Shown piece by piece: positions 45,244 through 52,266 of a stretch of 64,000 nt of DNA; within the stretch, counting starts at the first letter, position 1; every line of letters starts with the position of its first letter. The position numbers were made by a program, and so were the translations under genes. The stretch is from an uncultured Calothrix sp. Its GTDB lineage: Bacteria > Cyanobacteriota > Cyanobacteriia > Cyanobacteriales > Nostocaceae. The DNA lies in the NCBI GenBank assembly GCA_937973965.1, contig CALJJQ010000031.1, positions 33,635-97,634 of the forward strand. The letters run 5' to 3'. The notes below the pieces were generated by a model. That model ran no database searches. It was not told where the DNA came from and worked only from the letters and a program-made list of their open reading frames with translations.

Positions 45244-45462
45244 ATGTCTAATCACTTACCACACATCATCCCAGCACTACCACCCCAAGCAGAAGACGTA
45301 CTAGCAGCAGCCCAAATTACGCGAGAATATTATGCGGAGGTGCGTAGTCGAAACGAATTTGCTCAATACTGTCAATGGTATCATGCCACAGCGACCGCAA
45401 ACCGCCATGATTTGCAAAAAATGCGCGGCGAATTGAATATTTTTGCCTGGTTTCGCCGTTGA
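45244..45462 (+). CDS. small hypothetical protein
   Basis: 72-aa ORF with ordinary composition (…REYYAEVRSRNEFAQYCQWYHATA…). No family recognised. Confidence 0.5.
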   Translation: MSNHLPHIIPALPPQAEDVLAAAQITREYYAEVRSRNEFAQYCQWYHATATANRHDLQKMRGELNIFAWFRR

Positions 45463-46475: not shown

Positions 46476-49055
46476 TTAAACGATTATAATTTGCCACATA
46501 CTAGCTGCTAATCCCAGGGTTGCTAAATGTTGCCAAATTAAGATGGATAATGGCTGACGGGCGATTTTGTGGGTCAAAATCATGGAAAGCAGTACCGCAA
46601 ACACTAACGTTGTACCCTGCAAAAAAGCAATCACTGCGGGATGGGCAACAAACATTGGTAAATGAATATTATTTAATTGAAAAGTAGCAAGGGTGACGGG
46701 GAGAATTTTTCCGCCTTCACTTAATCCCAAGTGCCAATAATGGGCAATATTCCCACCTAATACTAAGGGTAAATAACCATAGGCAAGTTCGATGAATTTA
46801 CGAGCTTTTATCCGAGGTATTGGGGTTACTGGTTGTTTTGGCTTGAGTGATAGTAATTGTGGATAAAACCAGCACCAAATTTGAGTGAAAATATTGGTAA
46901 CAATACAGATGAATCCAGGAATGATTAGGGCAAGAATGGATAGGGATAAATGGGGGAAAAATTGCTGTAAATCCAGGTTTAATCCCAGCCAAGTTTGAAT
47001 TTCTGGTAAGCGATGGAGGAATACTGCACCTAAAAGTAAAAATAATAGGGCTACTTCATAACTGCGGGGATTATGGGTTGTCCAAAGTTCAATTCCCGGT
47101 GGACGTAAGTTAAATTCTACGGAACGGTGGGGACAGGCTTTGAGACAGGTCATACATAAAACACAGTCCCGGTTGTCTTCTAATTGGGCTGGATGGGAAT
47201 ATAATGGACAACCATTTGTTGCCATTCCTTCGCCTTTTTGGGGACCACCTTTATAACATTGATAGGTTGTACAACTAGCTGCACAAATTCCTTGTTGGGC
47301 ACGTAATTCTGTCATAGCTAATTTGGCAAATAACCCGTTCATTCCCCCAATGGGACAGAGATAGCGACACCAAAATCTGCGTTCAAAAATCAGCGAACAA
47401 ATTACCGCTCCCGCAGTAATTAATAGTAATAAACATGCCGACAAATAGGCTGTATCTGGTAAATTCCAGAGTTCTTCCCATAAAAATATTAAAGTAAATA
47501 AAGCGAATAAAAACCAACCGCCCCATTTCTCTGCTTGTTCACGGGGCCATTTTTTCAAAGTGCGTGGAAATAGATATAGTGACAATTTTTGGGCAATTTC
47601 ACCATATATCATAAATGGACAAAAGGCGCACCAAATCCGACCGAGAAAGGGAAATAATAACAGAAAACCTAACCACCACCAAGCCCAAAATAAATTCAAA
47701 CCAAAGTTTTCTGCACGGGTTTGAGGACCAAAAAATAACACCGCCACAATCACAGCAAAGGCAATAGTAGTAAAACCAAAATTAATCCGGTCAGGATACC
47801 AATTACTCCGCAAGAATCGCCGTAATTGGGGATATAAATTCAATAGATTGACACGAAAACGTTTTTTCTTGGTTTGGACTGACCAAAATATTTCTTCGGT
47901 TAATTCTTGATTAGTTTCTGCTTGAATAATTGCTCGTTCTACTAAACTTTCTAATTCCTTGAGATTCCCAGGAAAATCATAGGATTGTAAGCGTCGTAAT
48001 GCTTCCGGTGTCATTTGGGGTTTGGGAATACCCCTTGCACGGGTATATAAACTCATGTAATAGTCAACTTGGGCTTGAATATCGCTTTTGCGAACCCGTA
48101 AGGGTGGAACTTTGATCGTGGAGCTAACACTACGCTCAATTGCTGGTACAGTTTTTTCCGAGACAATCAGGATACGAGCTTGACTAGTATGGGTTTCCGG
48201 TTCTGCTTCTCCAACACGCTGGACAGGTTTATAAGTATTAGTTTGTAATAAATTCACAATTGCTGGTAATAATTCCTGGGGTAATTCCTGAATATTATTC
48301 AGAACAAGAGTACCATTACCCAAATAGGCGAGTAATCCTGGTTTACCACCGACTCGACCAAATAAATCTGCACCACTGGTTTGGAGAAAACCACAGTTGA
48401 CTTTAATAATGGGGGTGCGTCGAAAGGGTGAACTGTAGTGGATAAGAGCGGCGATATTGTCTTTTTCTAGACCAGGTTCACCGAAAATGAGAGTAGAATT
48501 ACGGTTACTGGCGGCAATCCGAATTTGTTCACGTAATTTTTTGGCGTAGCGACTACTACCGACGATTCCCCGTTTAGCTTTCGTAACCAGGTAAGGACGC
48601 AATTCCAAGGAACGCTGTTGTTCGTAATCAAAAGCGGAAGTGAGTTGGGCTAATTCGTCCGCTAACAGTCGAGAAAAAGCTTGGTTGATTTCCGGGTACT
48701 GATGAATAATGGTGCGAAATTTATCGGCACAGAGAAAGTAAAGATGGCATTCATTCAGGGTAATAATGTTGCAGGGAGAAGGTTGTTCTAGGAGTAATTC
48801 TTTTAAATTAATTGCTGTACCGGGGAGTAAACCGCAACAAGCACTCTTATATTGAGGATTAGTGCTATAGGTCTCAATCCGACCACTTTCCAGCAGATAT
48901 AGACCATCAGGAATAGTATTTTCACTGATAAATTGAGTATCGGCGGGAATTACTTTGTGAATAAATTGAGATGCGATCACATTTAGTACTTCAGTCGATA
49001 ATATCCCTAGAATTGTTCGTTCTTGCAACCATACAATTCGTTGATCTTCAGTCAT
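46476..49055 (-). CDS. fusion protein: cNMP-binding domain + degenerate sigma54-interaction (AAA+) domain + polytopic NapH-like 4Fe-4S (polyferredoxin) membrane domain
   Basis: N-terminal Crp-like beta-barrel (PDGLYLLESGRIE). AAA+ region: GEPGLEKDNIAALIH...LVLNNIQEL...PPLRVRKSDI...FPGNLKELESLVERAI. Membrane part: CAFCPFMIYGE, WCRYLCPIGG, CAASCTTYQC, CVLCMTCLKACP. Confidence 0.85.
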   Translation of the reverse strand: MTEDQRIVWLQERTILGILSTEVLNVIASQFIHKVIPADTQFISENTIPDGLYLLESGRIETYSTNPQYKSACCGLLPGTAINLKELLLEQPSPCNIITLNECHLYFLCADKFRTIIHQYPEINQAFSRLLADELAQLTSAFDYEQQRSLELRPYLVTKAKRGIVGSSRYAKKLREQIRIAASNRNSTLIFGEPGLEKDNIAALIHYSSPFRRTPIIKVNCGFLQTSGADLFGRVGGKPGLLAYLGNGTLVLNNIQELPQELLPAIVNLLQTNTYKPVQRVGEAEPETHTSQARILIVSEKTVPAIERSVSSTIKVPPLRVRKSDIQAQVDYYMSLYTRARGIPKPQMTPEALRRLQSYDFPGNLKELESLVERAIIQAETNQELTEEIFWSVQTKKKRFRVNLLNLYPQLRRFLRSNWYPDRINFGFTTIAFAVIVAVLFFGPQTRAENFGLNLFWAWWWLGFLLLFPFLGRIWCAFCPFMIYGEIAQKLSLYLFPRTLKKWPREQAEKWGGWFLFALFTLIFLWEELWNLPDTAYLSACLLLLITAGAVICSLIFERRFWCRYLCPIGGMNGLFAKLAMTELRAQQGICAASCTTYQCYKGGPQKGEGMATNGCPLYSHPAQLEDNRDCVLCMTCLKACPHRSVEFNLRPPGIELWTTHNPRSYEVALLFLLLGAVFLHRLPEIQTWLGLNLDLQQFFPHLSLSILALIIPGFICIVTNIFTQIWCWFYPQLLSLKPKQPVTPIPRIKARKFIELAYGYLPLVLGGNIAHYWHLGLSEGGKILPVTLATFQLNNIHLPMFVAHPAVIAFLQGTTLVFAVLLSMILTHKIARQPLSILIWQHLATLGLAASMWQIIIV

Positions 49056-49696: not shown

Positions 49697-49939
49697 ATGC
49701 GTACTGACTTTGACTACCCCAACAAAGACCTGCTTGGACCAGTTGTATTTCGTCCCAGTTTCAACCAATTTGAAAACATTAATGCTAACCAAGCATGGTC
49801 ACTATTTTTCAGTGCTGGACAGGACGATAAAATTCTTGGTGAACAGCGTGAGTTAGGTAATTTGTTCACCAACCTGTTAATTGCCATCGGTGTGACCGGT
49901 ACTATTTGGGGTATTTATTTTACTGGCATCATTGGTTAA
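49697..49939 (+). CDS. small hypothetical protein with C-terminal TM helix
   Basis: 80 aa. AGGAGA RBS 8 nt upstream. Lies 72 nt downstream of hli on the same strand. The C-terminus LFTNLLIAIGVTGTIWGIYFTGIIG is hydrophobic. Confidence 0.55.
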   Translation: MRTDFDYPNKDLLGPVVFRPSFNQFENINANQAWSLFFSAGQDDKILGEQRELGNLFTNLLIAIGVTGTIWGIYFTGIIG

Positions 49940-51702: not shown

Positions 51703-52266
51703 GTGCCATTAGAAATTGCCGTAGACAAGACAAAGCTCAAAAATCCCCCATTAAAATTACACTATTTAGGCGATCGCGTATTACGTCAGCCAGCAAAACG
51801 CATTGCCAAGGTTGATGATGAGATTCGTCAACTTGCACGGCAAATGCTCCAAACCATGTACAGCAGTGATGGAATCGGTTTGGCTGCACCCCAGGTTGGC
51901 ATTAATAAACAACTAATCGTGATTGATTTAGAACCCGATAACCCGAAAAATCAACCTCTAGTCCTCATTAACCCGACCATCAAACAAGTCAGTCGGGAAA
52001 TTTGCATCGGACAGGAAGGTTGTTTAAGTATACCTGGTGTCTATTTAGACGTCAAAAGACCCGCATCAGTGGAAATTTCCTATAAAGACGAACAGGGTCG
52101 TCCCTGTACCCTCAAAGCCAGTGATTTACTAGCGCGTTGCATCCTCCACGAAATGGATCACCTGAATGGAGTAGTATTTGTAGATCGGGTAGAAAACAGT
52201 ATCGCTCTTGCGCAAGAATTAAAAAAACACGGCTTTTCTCAACAAGCAGTTAAACCAATTGTATAG
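51703..52266 (+). CDS. def: peptide deformylase
   Basis: GIGLAAPQVG, EGCLSIPG, HEMDHLNG. GTG start. Confidence 0.95.
   Translation: MPLEIAVDKTKLKNPPLKLHYLGDRVLRQPAKRIAKVDDEIRQLARQMLQTMYSSDGIGLAAPQVGINKQLIVIDLEPDNPKNQPLVLINPTIKQVSREICIGQEGCLSIPGVYLDVKRPASVEISYKDEQGRPCTLKASDLLARCILHEMDHLNGVVFVDRVENSIALAQELKKHGFSQQAVKPIV

What the first reader, a model, noticed from the sequence alone, without database searches (positions are those of the whole stretch)
46476..49055. cNMP-binding / degenerate sigma54-type AAA+ / NapH-like polyferredoxin fusion in a lineage that has no sigma54
Seen in the translation: a single 859-aa ORF joins three parts. (i) A Crp-like cyclic-nucleotide-binding barrel. (ii) A domain clearly homologous to sigma54 enhancer-binding-protein AAA+ modules: IVGSS...LREQI, PPLRVRKSDI, YDFPGNLKELESLVERAI. 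(iii) A polytopic membrane domain with CAFCP, WCRYLCPIGG, CAASCTTYQC and CVLCMTCLKACP. The AAA+ module looks catalytically dead. The P-loop is GEPGLEKD instead of GESGTGKE. Walker B is LVLNNI instead of LFLDEI. The GAFTGA sigma54-contact loop is missing (LFGRVGGKPGLL). There is no C-terminal HTH. Established knowledge: cyanobacteria encode only sigma70-family sigma factors (no rpoN), and CxxCP plus 4Fe-4S cysteine clusters typify NapH/MauN/NosR-type membrane polyferredoxins. Inference: an EBP scaffold has been repurposed as a nucleotide-independent signalling or redox module. The neighbours have a redox or light-stress flavour (ftrV, hli, hpt).
Basis: partly seen in the sequence, partly recalled or inferred. 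Interest (0 to 1): 0.7.

Follow-up and report, generated by a model that had tools for sequence, protein, structure and literature searches.

The report
Membrane iron-sulfur protein with dead AAA+
This gene encodes an uncharacterised membrane iron-sulfur protein fused to a catalytically dead copy of a sigma-54 activator ATPase; it is mislabelled as a transcription factor, and it is conserved from cyanobacteria into the nuclear genomes of plastid-bearing algae, which marks it as a likely unstudied photosynthetic-membrane component.

Summary
One 859-aa ORF (46476-49055, minus strand) joins a Crp-like barrel, a sigma-54-activator-type AAA+ module and a NapH-like membrane polyferredoxin. The Walker B acids, both arginine fingers, the GAFTGA loop and any DNA-binding domain are missing. 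It is not an assembly artefact: at least 588 species representatives carry it.

The interpretation needs four corrections.
1. The fusion did not arise in a sigma-54-free lineage. The same three-part, HTH-less, hydrolysis-dead architecture occurs in Desulfobacterales, a Firmicute, Acidobacteria and Armatimonadota.
2. The barrel has lost the Glu and Arg that bind cyclic nucleotides, and 57 of 180 cyanobacterial members lack the barrel altogether.
3. The P-loop lysine is invariant, so "nucleotide-independent" is unproven.
4. None of the cited neighbours (ftrV, hli, hpt) lies near the orthologue in 80 loci.

New here: the clade extends into nuclear genomes of green algae and Chromera. Constraint peaks in the ferredoxin-like insert (92% identity among cyanobacteria). 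The confident membrane-module model has no structural match in the PDB.

Best reading: an uncharacterised membrane Fe-S electron-transfer protein with a pseudo-ATPase scaffold. No literature on it was found. Its substrate is unknown.

The parts
46476..49055 (-). Complete ORF, 859 aa plus TAA stop. Apparently monocistronic: 598 bp from ftrV downstream, divergent from hli upstream.
   Evidence: full-length homologues cover 100% of it
48696..48950 (-). CNB (Crp/PKA-R-like) beta-barrel, residues 36-120. The phosphate-binding cassette is degenerate: the canonical F-G-E...P-R-[ST]-A is I-N83-L84...P-S93-P.
   Evidence: Pfam PF00027 E 7.8e-11; alignments to PKA-R 5kbf and 5j3u; family comparison
48591..48692 (-). 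Long linker helix, residues 122-155, joining the barrel to the AAA+ module.
   Evidence: AF2 helix H122-155; 69% identity among cyanobacteria
48153..48566 (-). EBP-type AAA+ alpha/beta subdomain, residues 164-301.
   Evidence: PF00158 E 3.5e-14; PDB phmmer VpsR 2.6e-20, NifA, PspF; Foldseek TM 0.7-0.79 to the AAA+ domains of NtrC1, PspF, FleQ and FlrC
48459..48482 (-). Variant P-loop GEPGLEKD, residues 192-199. Lys198 is kept; Thr becomes Leu196 and Gly becomes Glu197.
   Evidence: in 179 cyanobacterial sequences L196 179/179, K198 179/179, D199 174/179, position 197 E139/D29/G11
48312..48368 (-). Remnant of the L1 region, residues 230-248 (DLFGRVGGKPGLLAYLGNG). The GAFTGA sigma-54 contact loop is deleted.
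   Evidence: gap against PspF and NifA; deleted in 179/179 cyanobacterial and 18/19 algal sequences
48291..48311 (-). Degenerate Walker B TLVLNNI, residues 249-255. PspF D107 and E108 are both Asn.
   Evidence: N176/179 and N178/179
47892..48098 (-). AAA+ lid subdomain, residues 320-388. Sensor II Arg is Lys366 (GNLKEL).
   Evidence: PF25601 E 2.8e-13
47787..47885 (-). Conserved basic juxtamembrane segment, residues 391-423, linking the lid to TM1.
   Evidence: invariant W391, R401, N403, L405, N406, Y408, R412, W419; 73% identity
47331..47786 (-). NapH-like membrane core, residues 424-575. It has four TM helices, with a CX2CP motif (CAFCP, 47616-47630) after TM2 and a CX3CP motif (CRYLCP, 47352-47369) after TM4. 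Both are predicted to lie at the cytoplasmic face.
   Evidence: Fer4_5 x2; TIGR02163; hydropathy and positive-inside pattern; AF2 pLDDT >90; all four Cys invariant in 137 sequences
47091..47330 (-). Cytoplasmic ferredoxin-like insert, residues 576-655, with eight invariant Cys: C591-x3-C595-x4-C600 ... C616-P, and C631-x2-C634-x2-C637-x3-C641-P. That is enough for two [4Fe-4S] clusters.
   Evidence: 92% identity among cyanobacteria and 63% to algae
46479..47090 (-). C-terminal bundle of about five TM helices, residues 656-859. It matches no Pfam or NCBIfam family and is not covered by the NapH/MauN profile, whose match ends at residue 649.
   Evidence: conserved P763, P786, G793, Q813 across the whole family

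Best explanation
The protein is a member of an uncharacterised family of integral-membrane iron-sulfur proteins.

Its working part is a NapH-type module: four TM helices carrying a CX2CP and a CX3CP motif at the cytoplasmic membrane face, a cytoplasmic ferredoxin-like insert able to hold two [4Fe-4S] clusters, and a family-specific bundle of about five more TM helices. The most likely activity (inferred) is electron transfer between a soluble cytoplasmic or stromal reductant and something at or in the membrane. That could be the quinone pool, as for NapH, or a metal or thiol bound by the paired Cys-Pro motifs, as proposed for CcoG.

The N-terminal half descends from a cNMP-regulated sigma-54-activator AAA+ module that lost ATP hydrolysis before the family diversified. 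It is retained as a structural, oligomerising or regulatory pseudo-ATPase, and it may still bind nucleotide.

In the cyanobacterial and plastid clade the sigma-54 contact loop has been deleted, and the CNB barrel no longer has the residues needed to bind cAMP or cGMP. The protein is not a transcription factor.

Shown: the architecture, the motif states, the conservation pattern, the taxonomic distribution and the lack of an operon. Inferred: Fe-S binding, the direction and partners of electron flow, and the scaffold role of the AAA+ module.
For: - Domain and motif assignments.
- Twelve Cys are invariant across 137 sequences that span cyanobacteria and anaerobes.
- Constraint is highest in the ferredoxin-like insert (0.92) and in TM1-4 (0.80), against 0.65-0.71 for the AAA+ and 0.57 for the CNB barrel.
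- The CNB barrel is missing from 57/180 cyanobacterial and about half of the algal members, whereas the AAA+ module is present in every full-length member examined.
- Catalytic residues are absent in all three groups: 179 cyanobacterial, 19 algal and 138 anaerobe-type sequences.
- The degenerate P-loop is invariant rather than drifting.
- None of the three-module members listed carries HTH_8, while ordinary EBPs in the same hit list do.
- The cyanobacterial and algal sequences form one clade with 100/100 bootstrap, and the algal genes sit on Mb-scale nuclear contigs.
- The predicted topology puts all the Cys motifs in the cytoplasm.
- CcoG is a documented precedent for a Fer4_5-type membrane protein acting as a reductase through two [4Fe-4S] clusters (PMC7558416).
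Against: - There is no biochemical or genetic evidence for any activity.
- Genomic context offers no clue in cyanobacteria or in anaerobes.
- The NapH/MauN score is far below the family cut-off (48 against 213 bits), and no CcoG model hits, so a function cannot be transferred.
- The membrane module has no structural match in the PDB that would support a mechanism.
- AF2 modelled the Cys-rich insert poorly in the full-length run and only moderately in the module run (pLDDT 60-68).
- Strict retention of the AAA+ module fits a signalling role just as well.
Confidence: 0.55

Rival explanations
1. It is a redox-sensing signal transducer. The Fe-S and membrane module senses the redox state of the quinone or ferredoxin pool, as once proposed for NosR and NirI. 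The pseudo-AAA+ domain then passes the signal on through protein-protein contacts, for example with a sigma-70 holoenzyme or another regulator, in the manner of sigma-54-independent EBPs such as VpsR.
For: - The closest PDB sequence match is VpsR, an EBP that lacks GAFTGA and works with sigma-70.
- The AAA+ module is retained in all full-length members examined, including algal ones, for over a billion years.
- The anaerobe-type relatives keep a canonical cNMP-binding cassette, which points to a signalling ancestry.
- Standalone genes without enzyme partners are typical of regulators.
Against: - No DNA-binding or other output domain was found in any of the members scanned.
- The strongest constraint is on the Fe-S and TM core, not on the putative output surface.
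- The protein is membrane-anchored by about nine helices.
- The nuclear-encoded algal copies would have to signal inside the plastid.
Confidence: 0.25
2. It is a ligand-gated, ATP-binding but non-hydrolysing switch. The variant P-loop still binds ATP or ADP, and the barrel binds a ligand other than cAMP or cGMP. Occupancy then controls oligomerisation and so the activity of the membrane module. This refines either reading above rather than replacing it.
For: - Lys198 and the G-x-x-G scaffold are invariant, and 11/179 sequences fit the consensus GxxGxGK.
- The duplicated AAA+ copy reads GEAGVGKV and VLDH.
- The Asn or Asp equivalent to PspF N64 is conserved.
- From memory: Walker B Glu mutants of EBPs are known to trap ATP-bound rings.
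- The CNB fold is preserved, with a conserved but non-canonical pocket: Leu84 in 43/44 sequences.
Against: - Gly to Glu or Asp directly before the P-loop Lys in 168/179 sequences is expected to disturb phosphate binding.
- There are no arginine fingers to sense nucleotide across subunits.
- The barrel is dispensable in a third of cyanobacterial members.
Confidence: 0.3
3. It is a genuine sigma-54-dependent, or otherwise DNA-binding, transcriptional activator, as the database names say ('sigma 54-interacting transcriptional regulator', 'nitrogen assimilation regulatory protein').
For: Only the Pfam and NCBIfam similarity of the central domain and the automatic names attached to homologues.
Against: - GAFTGA is deleted, Walker B is NN, there are no arginine fingers and no HTH.
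- Every NCBIfam EBP equivalog scores 5- to 15-fold below its cut-off.
- The C-terminal half is a polytopic membrane domain.
- Cyanobacteria have no sigma-54 (PMC3162934, PMC2853384, PMC12282138).
Confidence: 0.02
4. It is an assembly or annotation artefact, or a decaying pseudogene that fuses two genes.
For: None beyond the unusual architecture.
Against: - An intact ORF of the same length and order is found in at least 588 species representatives and in complete chromosomes.
- Purifying selection is strong, with 60-92% identity by module.
- GC content is uniform across the gene.
Confidence: 0.01

Closest known systems
Bacterial enhancer-binding proteins (NtrC, NtrC1, PspF, NifA, FleQ, FlrC)
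   Same: The central domain is homologous and has the same fold: PF00158 and PF25601, PDB E-values 1e-12 to 1e-20, Foldseek TM 0.7-0.79. Shared landmarks include IVG.S...LR..I, ELFG, PPLR.R..DI and PGN..EL. The layout with an N-terminal sensor domain ahead of the AAA+ is also EBP-like.
   Different: There is no GAFTGA, no Walker B Asp-Glu, no R162 or R168 fingers, no sensor II Arg and no C-terminal HTH. The C-terminus is a nine-helix Fe-S membrane domain instead. The host lineage has no sigma-54.
Sigma-54-independent atypical EBPs (VpsR; from memory also TyrR, Rhodobacter capsulatus NtrC, HupR)
   Same: VpsR is the best PDB sequence match (7v2b, 2.6e-20). It likewise lacks a functional GAFTGA and does not use sigma-54.
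   Different: VpsR keeps an intact GESGTGKE P-loop (visible in the alignment) and is a soluble regulator. From memory it also has a REC domain and an HTH DNA-binding domain. The window protein has neither domain and is membrane-embedded.
NapH/MauN ferredoxin-type membrane proteins (quinol dehydrogenase subunit of periplasmic nitrate reductase)
   Same: This is the only significant family hit for the membrane module: TIGR02163 E 1e-12 over profile positions 76-254/255, and NF007013 E 1e-9. The organisation matches: TM pair, Cys-Pro motif, TM pair, Cys-Pro motif, then a cytoplasmic cluster-binding region.
   Different: - It scores 48 bits against a cut-off of 213.
- The first motif is CX2CP, where from memory NapH has CX3CP.
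- The first cluster motif is Cx3Cx4C...CP rather than CxxCxxCxxxCP.
- About five extra C-terminal TM helices are added.
- No napG, napA or mau genes lie nearby.
- It is fused to CNB and AAA+ modules.
CcoG/FixG/YccM cupric reductases
   Same: From memory these are also Fer4_5-type polytopic membrane proteins. [quoted passage not shown] It offers a plausible chemical analogy for the paired Cys-Pro motifs.
   Different: No CcoG or FixG model hits the window protein at E <= 10. There is no Fer4_18 or FixG_C domain and no ccoHIS context.
NosR/NirI
   Same: From memory these are membrane polyferredoxins with Cys-Pro motifs, historically described as membrane-bound 'regulators'. There is a weak local hit to the NosR model (E 0.008, 14.5 bits).
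   Different: The hit is not significant as family membership (cut-off 1000 bits). There is no periplasmic flavin-binding domain and no nos or nir context.
CNB domains of CRP/FNR regulators, PKA-R and HCN/SthK channels
   Same: Same fold by Pfam and PDB sequence search: PF00027 E 7.8e-11, 5kbf 1.6e-5.
   Different: The phosphate-binding cassette lacks the Gly-Glu and Arg that contact the cyclic nucleotide. The anaerobe-type relatives of the same family keep them (FGEMALLTGEPRSASV).

Membership tests
Sigma-54-dependent enhancer-binding proteins (bEBP) | AAA+ domain of the PF00158 type | tested here: met
   PF00158 E 3.5e-14 and PF25601 E 2.8e-13; Foldseek TM 0.7-0.79 to EBP AAA+ structures
Sigma-54-dependent enhancer-binding proteins (bEBP) | GAFTGA (L1) loop that contacts sigma-54 | tested here: not met
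   Deleted in the query and in 179/179 cyanobacterial homologues
Sigma-54-dependent enhancer-binding proteins (bEBP) | Catalytic ATPase residues: Walker A GxxGxGK, Walker B D-E, arginine fingers, sensor II Arg | tested here: not met
   GEPGLEKD; Walker B N253-N254; PspF R162 deleted; R168 is Ser; R227 is Lys
Sigma-54-dependent enhancer-binding proteins (bEBP) | C-terminal HTH (Fis-type) DNA-binding domain | tested here: not met
   No PF02954 or other HTH. The C-terminus is a membrane domain.
Sigma-54-dependent enhancer-binding proteins (bEBP) | Sigma-54 (rpoN) present in the genome | not testable with these tools
   Only 64 kb of the genome is available. The literature states that cyanobacteria lack sigma-54 (PMC3162934, PMC2853384, PMC12282138).
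Sigma-54-dependent enhancer-binding proteins (bEBP) | Score above the curated cut-off of any NCBIfam EBP equivalog | tested here: not met
   The best is NorR at 103 bits against a cut-off of 476. All others are further below.
NapH/MauN family (TIGR02163) | Score above the curated family cut-off | tested here: not met
   46-48 bits against 213
NapH/MauN family (TIGR02163) | Four TM helices with two cytoplasmic Cys-x(n)-Cys-Pro motifs | tested here: met
   CAFCP after TM2 and CRYLCP after TM4. The Cys are invariant and lie at the predicted cytoplasmic face. The first motif is CX2CP rather than CX3CP.
NapH/MauN family (TIGR02163) | Two 4Fe-4S ferredoxin motifs on the cytoplasmic side | tested here: inconclusive
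   Eight invariant Cys are present: one canonical CxxCxxCxxxCP and one Cx3Cx4C...CP. Cluster binding cannot be tested in silico.
NapH/MauN family (TIGR02163) | Genomic association with napG/napA or the mau genes | tested here: not met
   No such neighbours in the window or in 80+ loci
CcoG/FixG cupric reductases | Match to CcoG/FixG models, Fer4_18 and FixG_C domains, ccoGHIS context | tested here: not met
   No hit at E <= 10 in NCBIfam on the module, none in Pfam, and no such context
Cyclic-nucleotide-binding (CNB) domains | CNB beta-barrel fold | tested here: met
   PF00027 42 bits against a cut-off of 27.5; PKA-R and Crp matches; AF2 beta-barrel with pLDDT 76-92
Cyclic-nucleotide-binding (CNB) domains | Phosphate-binding cassette with Gly-Glu and Arg-[ST]-Ala that contact the cNMP | tested here: not met
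   The aligned positions are N83-L84 and S93-P94. In cNMP-bearing cyanobacterial members L84 occurs in 43/44 and position 93 is T or A. The anaerobe-type relatives keep FGE...PRSA.

The most novel reading that the evidence does not exclude
The family is a so-far overlooked component of oxygenic photosynthetic membranes, inherited by plastids. It would be a stromal or cytoplasmic-facing Fe-S oxidoreductase that feeds electrons from ferredoxin or NAD(P)H into the plastoquinone pool, or that reduces a metal or thiol substrate at the membrane. Its assembly or activity would be set by a ring or dimer of sigma-54-activator-derived pseudo-ATPase domains. That would be a new use of the EBP fold, outside transcription.
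Probability: 0.3. Interest if true: 0.8.

Novelty: new variant of a known kind. Interest (0 to 1): 0.62.

Why it matters
1. Annotation. Homologues in the public databases, listed here in their hundreds, are named 'sigma 54-interacting transcriptional regulator' or 'nitrogen assimilation regulatory protein', although they fail every defining feature of such regulators except the fold. Regulon inferences built on that label are wrong.

2. Biology. The protein is strongly conserved across cyanobacteria: at least 588 species representatives, with the ferredoxin-like insert 92% identical. It was kept after endosymbiotic transfer in green algae and in a chromerid. That pattern is typical of proteins tied to the photosynthetic membrane, yet no paper on this one was found. 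A membrane polyferredoxin facing the cytoplasm or stroma is a reasonable candidate for an unassigned electron route or a metal or thiol reductase.

3. AAA+ evolution. It is a clean natural example of an EBP module losing hydrolysis, then losing its sigma-54 contact loop in a lineage without sigma-54, while remaining under purifying selection.

4. Structure. The NapH-type membrane fold has no detectable solved representative, and this family yields a high-confidence model (pTM 0.91).

Tried and rejected
- Synteny as a functional clue. tblastn of the window's neighbours against 80 orthologous loci gave no hits. Clustering all flanking ORFs gave only lineage-restricted neighbours: a ~112-aa ORF in 32/80 loci, a transaldolase-like gene in 26/80, and an unidentified ~279-aa ORF in 24/80. 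Contexts in Desulforamulus, a Desulfobacterales MAG, a metagenome contig, a GCA_003429145.1 contig, Synechococcus PCC 7502 and Cyanobacterium aponinum share nothing. One look-up (P0239) found no record.
- Fold search of the full-length model returned only AAA+ hits. Fold search of the membrane module returned nothing meaningful.
- A profile search of the PDB with alignment A3 was dominated by the N-terminal columns and said nothing about the membrane part. A plain sequence search found only generic ferredoxin motifs.
- Literature. Ten searches found no description of the family. Two were too loose to be useful. The primary CcoG paper, PMC6800367, is not held.
- slr1529 of Synechocystis carries the same legacy label. 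Its knockout segregates fully and grows normally (PMC5318462 and its supplement). I could not obtain its sequence to confirm orthology, so I do not use it as evidence.
- Model coordinates are not exposed, so Cys-Cys geometry could not be measured.
- Promoter and terminator, Rfam and tRNA scans added nothing.
- Rejected readings: true sigma-54 activator, assembly artefact, pseudogene. See the rival explanations.


Full report
**1.
The minus-strand ORF at 46476-49055 encodes 859 residues from ATG to TAA. Pfam finds cNMP_binding (residues 36-120, E 7.8e-11), Sigma54_activat (164-301, 3.5e-14), AAA_lid_14 (320-388, 2.8e-13) and two Fer4_5 stretches (1.5e-7). NCBIfam matches every sigma-54 activator equivalog, but 5- to 15-fold below its cut-off; the best is NorR at 103 bits against 476. 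It also matches the NapH/MauN subfamily over residues 470-649 (E 4e-12). GC content is even across the gene.

The fusion is not an assembly artefact. Proteins of the same length and Pfam content fill the list of the best 120 cyanobacterial hits, several of them from complete chromosomes.

**2. The AAA+ module is an EBP descendant that cannot hydrolyse ATP.**
Sequence search of the PDB returns VpsR (2.6e-20), NifA, PspF, FlrC, FleQ, NtrX, ZraR, LuxO and NtrC1. The AlphaFold model (mean pLDDT 81) superposes on EBP AAA+ domains with target-normalised TM of 0.7-0.79.

The residue-level alignments and a family alignment anchored on PspF numbering give the following.

| Feature (PspF) | State in the window protein |
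|---|---|
| Walker A GERGTGKE | GEPGLEKD (T40 becomes L196, G41 becomes E197, K42 kept as K198, E43 becomes D199) |
| Walker B D107-E108 | N253-N254 |
| GAFTGA loop | deleted |
| R162 | deleted |
| R168 | Ser |
| Sensor II R227 | Lys366 |

In 179 cyanobacterial sequences L196 and K198 are invariant, D199 occurs in 174, and the two Walker B Asn in 176 and 178. The site is therefore fixed under selection and is not drifting.

Position 197 is Glu in 139, Asp in 29 and Gly in 11 sequences. The last group reads GEPGLGKD, which fits GxxGxGK. The 1115-1121-aa proteins of the Trichocoleus type carry an internal duplication of the AAA+ module, and the extra copy reads GEAGVGKV and VLDH.

I conclude that hydrolysis is lost (shown at sequence level), but that nucleotide binding is not excluded.

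**3. The barrel has the CNB fold but not the cNMP-binding residues.**
Aligned to PKA regulatory subunits (5kbf, 5j3u), the canonical cassette F-G-E-L-A-L-L-x-x-x-P-R-A-A-T corresponds to I-N83-L84-K-E-L-L-L-E-Q-P-S93-P-C-N. The Glu that binds the ribose 2'-OH and the Arg that binds the phosphate are both absent. Among the cyanobacterial members that have the barrel, position 84 is Leu in 43 of 44, and position 93 is Thr or Ala. The barrel is missing altogether from 57 of 180 cyanobacterial proteins at least 700 aa long, namely the ~720-740-aa forms of Pseudanabaena, Cyanobacterium, Spirulina subsalsa and Synechococcus PCC 7502. It is also missing from about half of the algal copies.

**4. The membrane half is a NapH-type polyferredoxin with family-specific features.**
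Hydropathy and the positive-inside pattern place residues 1-423 in the cytoplasm, followed by:
- TM1 and TM2;
- CAFCP at the cytoplasmic face;
- a basic loop;
- TM3 and TM4;
- CRYLCP at the cytoplasmic face;
- a cytoplasmic Cys-rich insert (576-655);
- about five more helices.

A second AlphaFold run on residues 400-859, with 137 sequences that included the distant relatives, gave pLDDT 91 and pTM 0.91 with the same helix layout.

Twelve cysteines are invariant across all 137 sequences: C476, C479, C563 and C567 in the two Cys-Pro motifs, and C591, C595, C600, C616, C631, C634, C637 and C641 in the insert. Eight Cys in a Cx3Cx4C...CP plus CxxCxxCxxxCP arrangement are enough for two [4Fe-4S] clusters. 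The other four could hold a third cluster, a metal or a redox-active pair (inference).

On its own, the module hits only NapH/MauN (1e-12, 48 bits against a cut-off of 213) and NapH (1e-9). NosR appears at E 0.008, and no CcoG model appears at all. Foldseek finds nothing in the PDB (best E 0.4, TM below 0.26). This fold class therefore has no detectable solved representative.

**5.
An exhaustive search of 1.84 billion representatives found 406 with E <= 1e-30. Many are 27-35% identical over all three modules. Named examples come from Desulfobacterales, Thermodesulfobacteriota, Desulfobacula, Desulforamulus ferrireducens, Acidobacteria and Armatimonadota.

These anaerobe-type proteins have the same domain order and no HTH_8, although ordinary EBPs in the same hit list do have it. 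Their other features are:
- a canonical cNMP cassette, FGEMALLTGEPRSASV;
- a P-loop of the form GxxGT[EG]K;
- an L1 loop of normal length reading A[FL][SP]FA rather than GAFTGA;
- Walker B [E/K/D]-N;
- no arginine fingers.

So fusion to the polyferredoxin and loss of hydrolysis both predate the cyanobacterial clade, and both occur in phyla that do use sigma-54 (the latter from established knowledge). What is specific to the cyanobacterial clade is further reduction: deletion of the L1 loop, Thr-to-Leu in the P-loop, and loss of the cNMP contacts. Deletion of the sigma-54 contact loop in a lineage without sigma-54 (PMC3162934, PMC2853384, PMC12282138) makes sense, but it is a correlation and not a demonstrated cause.

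**6. The clade extends into eukaryotic algae.**
Representatives 40-50% identical to the window protein are encoded on nuclear contigs of the following:
- Trebouxia (2.7-4.4 Mb contigs);
- Picocystis salinarum;
- Edaphochlamys debaryana;
- Micractinium tetrahymenae;
- Ostreococcus tauri (XP_003082934.2);
- Chromera velia.

Most carry the same GEPGL.K. P-loop, and 18 of 19 lack the L1 loop. The Ostreococcus- and Chromera-type copies diverge in the P-loop (GEAGTMRL, GEYGTLKA).

In a neighbour-joining tree of 639 columns, cyanobacteria plus algae form a clade in 100 of 100 bootstraps against the anaerobe-type sequences. Cyanobacteria are monophyletic in 97. Algal monophyly is unresolved at 25.

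Several algal copies have basic or hydroxylated N-terminal extensions. The Chromera copy begins with a signal-peptide-like stretch followed by ALG|F, which from my own knowledge fits bipartite targeting to a complex plastid. This is the pattern expected from endosymbiotic gene transfer. It implies a function that remained useful inside plastids. No land-plant sequence appeared among the top 150 representatives, but absence from land plants was not tested directly.

**7. Where the selective constraint lies.**

| Module | Identity among cyanobacteria | Identity, cyanobacteria to algae |
|---|---|---|
| CNB barrel | 0.57 | 0.25 |
| AAA+ (two subdomains) | 0.65-0.71 | 0.36-0.38 |
| Juxtamembrane segment | 0.73 | 0.39 |
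| TM1-4 with the Cys-Pro motifs | 0.80 | 0.56 |
| Ferredoxin-like insert | 0.92 | 0.63 |
| C-terminal helices | 0.65 | 0.36 |

The Fe-S and membrane core is the functional heart of the protein. The AAA+ module is an obligatory accessory, and the barrel is optional.

**8. Genomic context gives no help.**
None of them lies within 8 kb of the orthologue in any of 80 Nostocales loci. The commonest neighbours there are lineage-restricted. Contexts in other cyanobacterial orders and in the anaerobes are all different. The gene looks monocistronic. The 'redox or light-stress neighbourhood' argument should be dropped.

**9. What it most likely does.**
I commit, at 0.55, to a membrane Fe-S electron-transfer protein. 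A soluble reductant would dock on the cytoplasmic or stromal ferredoxin-like insert. Electrons would pass through two [4Fe-4S] clusters to the site formed by the two Cys-Pro motifs at the membrane face, and from there to a quinone or to a bound metal or thiol.

The pseudo-AAA+ module, joined to TM1 by a strongly conserved juxtamembrane segment, would set the oligomeric state or gate access. It may respond to nucleotide occupancy. In the anaerobe-type relatives it may also respond to cAMP or cGMP.

The analogies are NapH in quinol oxidation (from memory) and CcoG in Cu(II) reduction through two [4Fe-4S] clusters (PMC7558416). Membership of either family is not met.

The main rival, at 0.25, is a redox sensor that signals through the AAA+ surface. 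The database reading, a sigma-54 activator, fails four of its defining features.

**10. Novelty and literature.**
Ten full-text searches found no description of this architecture. Homologues carry only automatic names. Synechocystis slr1529 carries the same legacy name, and its knockout is viable with normal growth (PMC5318462 supplement), but I could not confirm that it is the orthologue.

The parts are all known kinds. The combination, the pseudo-ATPase state under purifying selection, and the cyanobacterium-to-plastid conservation together make it a new variant of known kinds, with function still open.

Noticed in passing
P0242, P0243, P0244, P0254, P0256/P0425/P0426, P0283 (homologues; no window coordinates): Members of the same clade are encoded in nuclear genomes of the green algae Trebouxia, Picocystis, Edaphochlamys, Micractinium and Ostreococcus, and of the chromerid Chromera velia. 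The Chromera copy starts with a signal-peptide-like sequence followed by ALG|F. This indicates endosymbiotic gene transfer and probable plastid targeting.
   Followed up: partly
P0005, P0007, P0011 (Trichocoleus-type homologues, 1115-1121 aa): These carry an internal tandem duplication of the linker helix plus AAA+ module. The extra N-terminal copy has a consensus P-loop (GEAGVGKV) and keeps the Walker B Asp (VLDH), unlike the membrane-proximal copy (GEPGLGKD, LLNN).
   Followed up: partly
P0272-P0390 and P0436-P0494 (anaerobe-type relatives; loci L081-L084): Three-module relatives occur in Desulfobacterales, Thermodesulfobacteriota, Desulforamulus, Acidobacteria and Armatimonadota. They keep a canonical cNMP cassette and an L1 loop reading A[FL][SP]FA, close to GAFTGA, but have Walker B [E/K/D]-N and no arginine fingers. 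In sigma-54-containing hosts these membrane-anchored, hydrolysis-dead EBP-like proteins might still contact sigma-54. This was not tested.
   Followed up: no
P0247 (Spirulina major, 901 aa): This cyanobacterial homologue is only 41% identical to the window protein and has a canonical Walker A (GAPGTGKT). It may be a divergent paralogue or a separate acquisition.
   Followed up: no
window 51703-52266 (+) and L086 5220-5876: Peptide deformylase lies directly upstream of the homologue in Synechococcus sp. PCC 7502, and 2.6 kb from the gene (on the opposite strand) in the window. It is not seen in the 80 Nostocales loci, so this is probably coincidence.
   Followed up: partly
window 45244-45462 (+) and 49697-49939 (+): Two small ORFs (72 and 80 aa) flank the locus and have no Pfam match. 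The 80-aa one ends in a hydrophobic stretch and sits just downstream of the hli-type gene.
   Followed up: no
L001-L080, about 35-410 bp downstream of the orthologue (e.g. L070 10781-11119): A ~112-aa ORF lies on the same strand immediately downstream of the orthologue in 32 of 80 Nostocales loci. It is absent from the window, and its identity was not determined.
   Followed up: partly
window 1-64000: No tRNA genes and no Rfam family above gathering score anywhere in the 64-kb window.
   Followed up: yes
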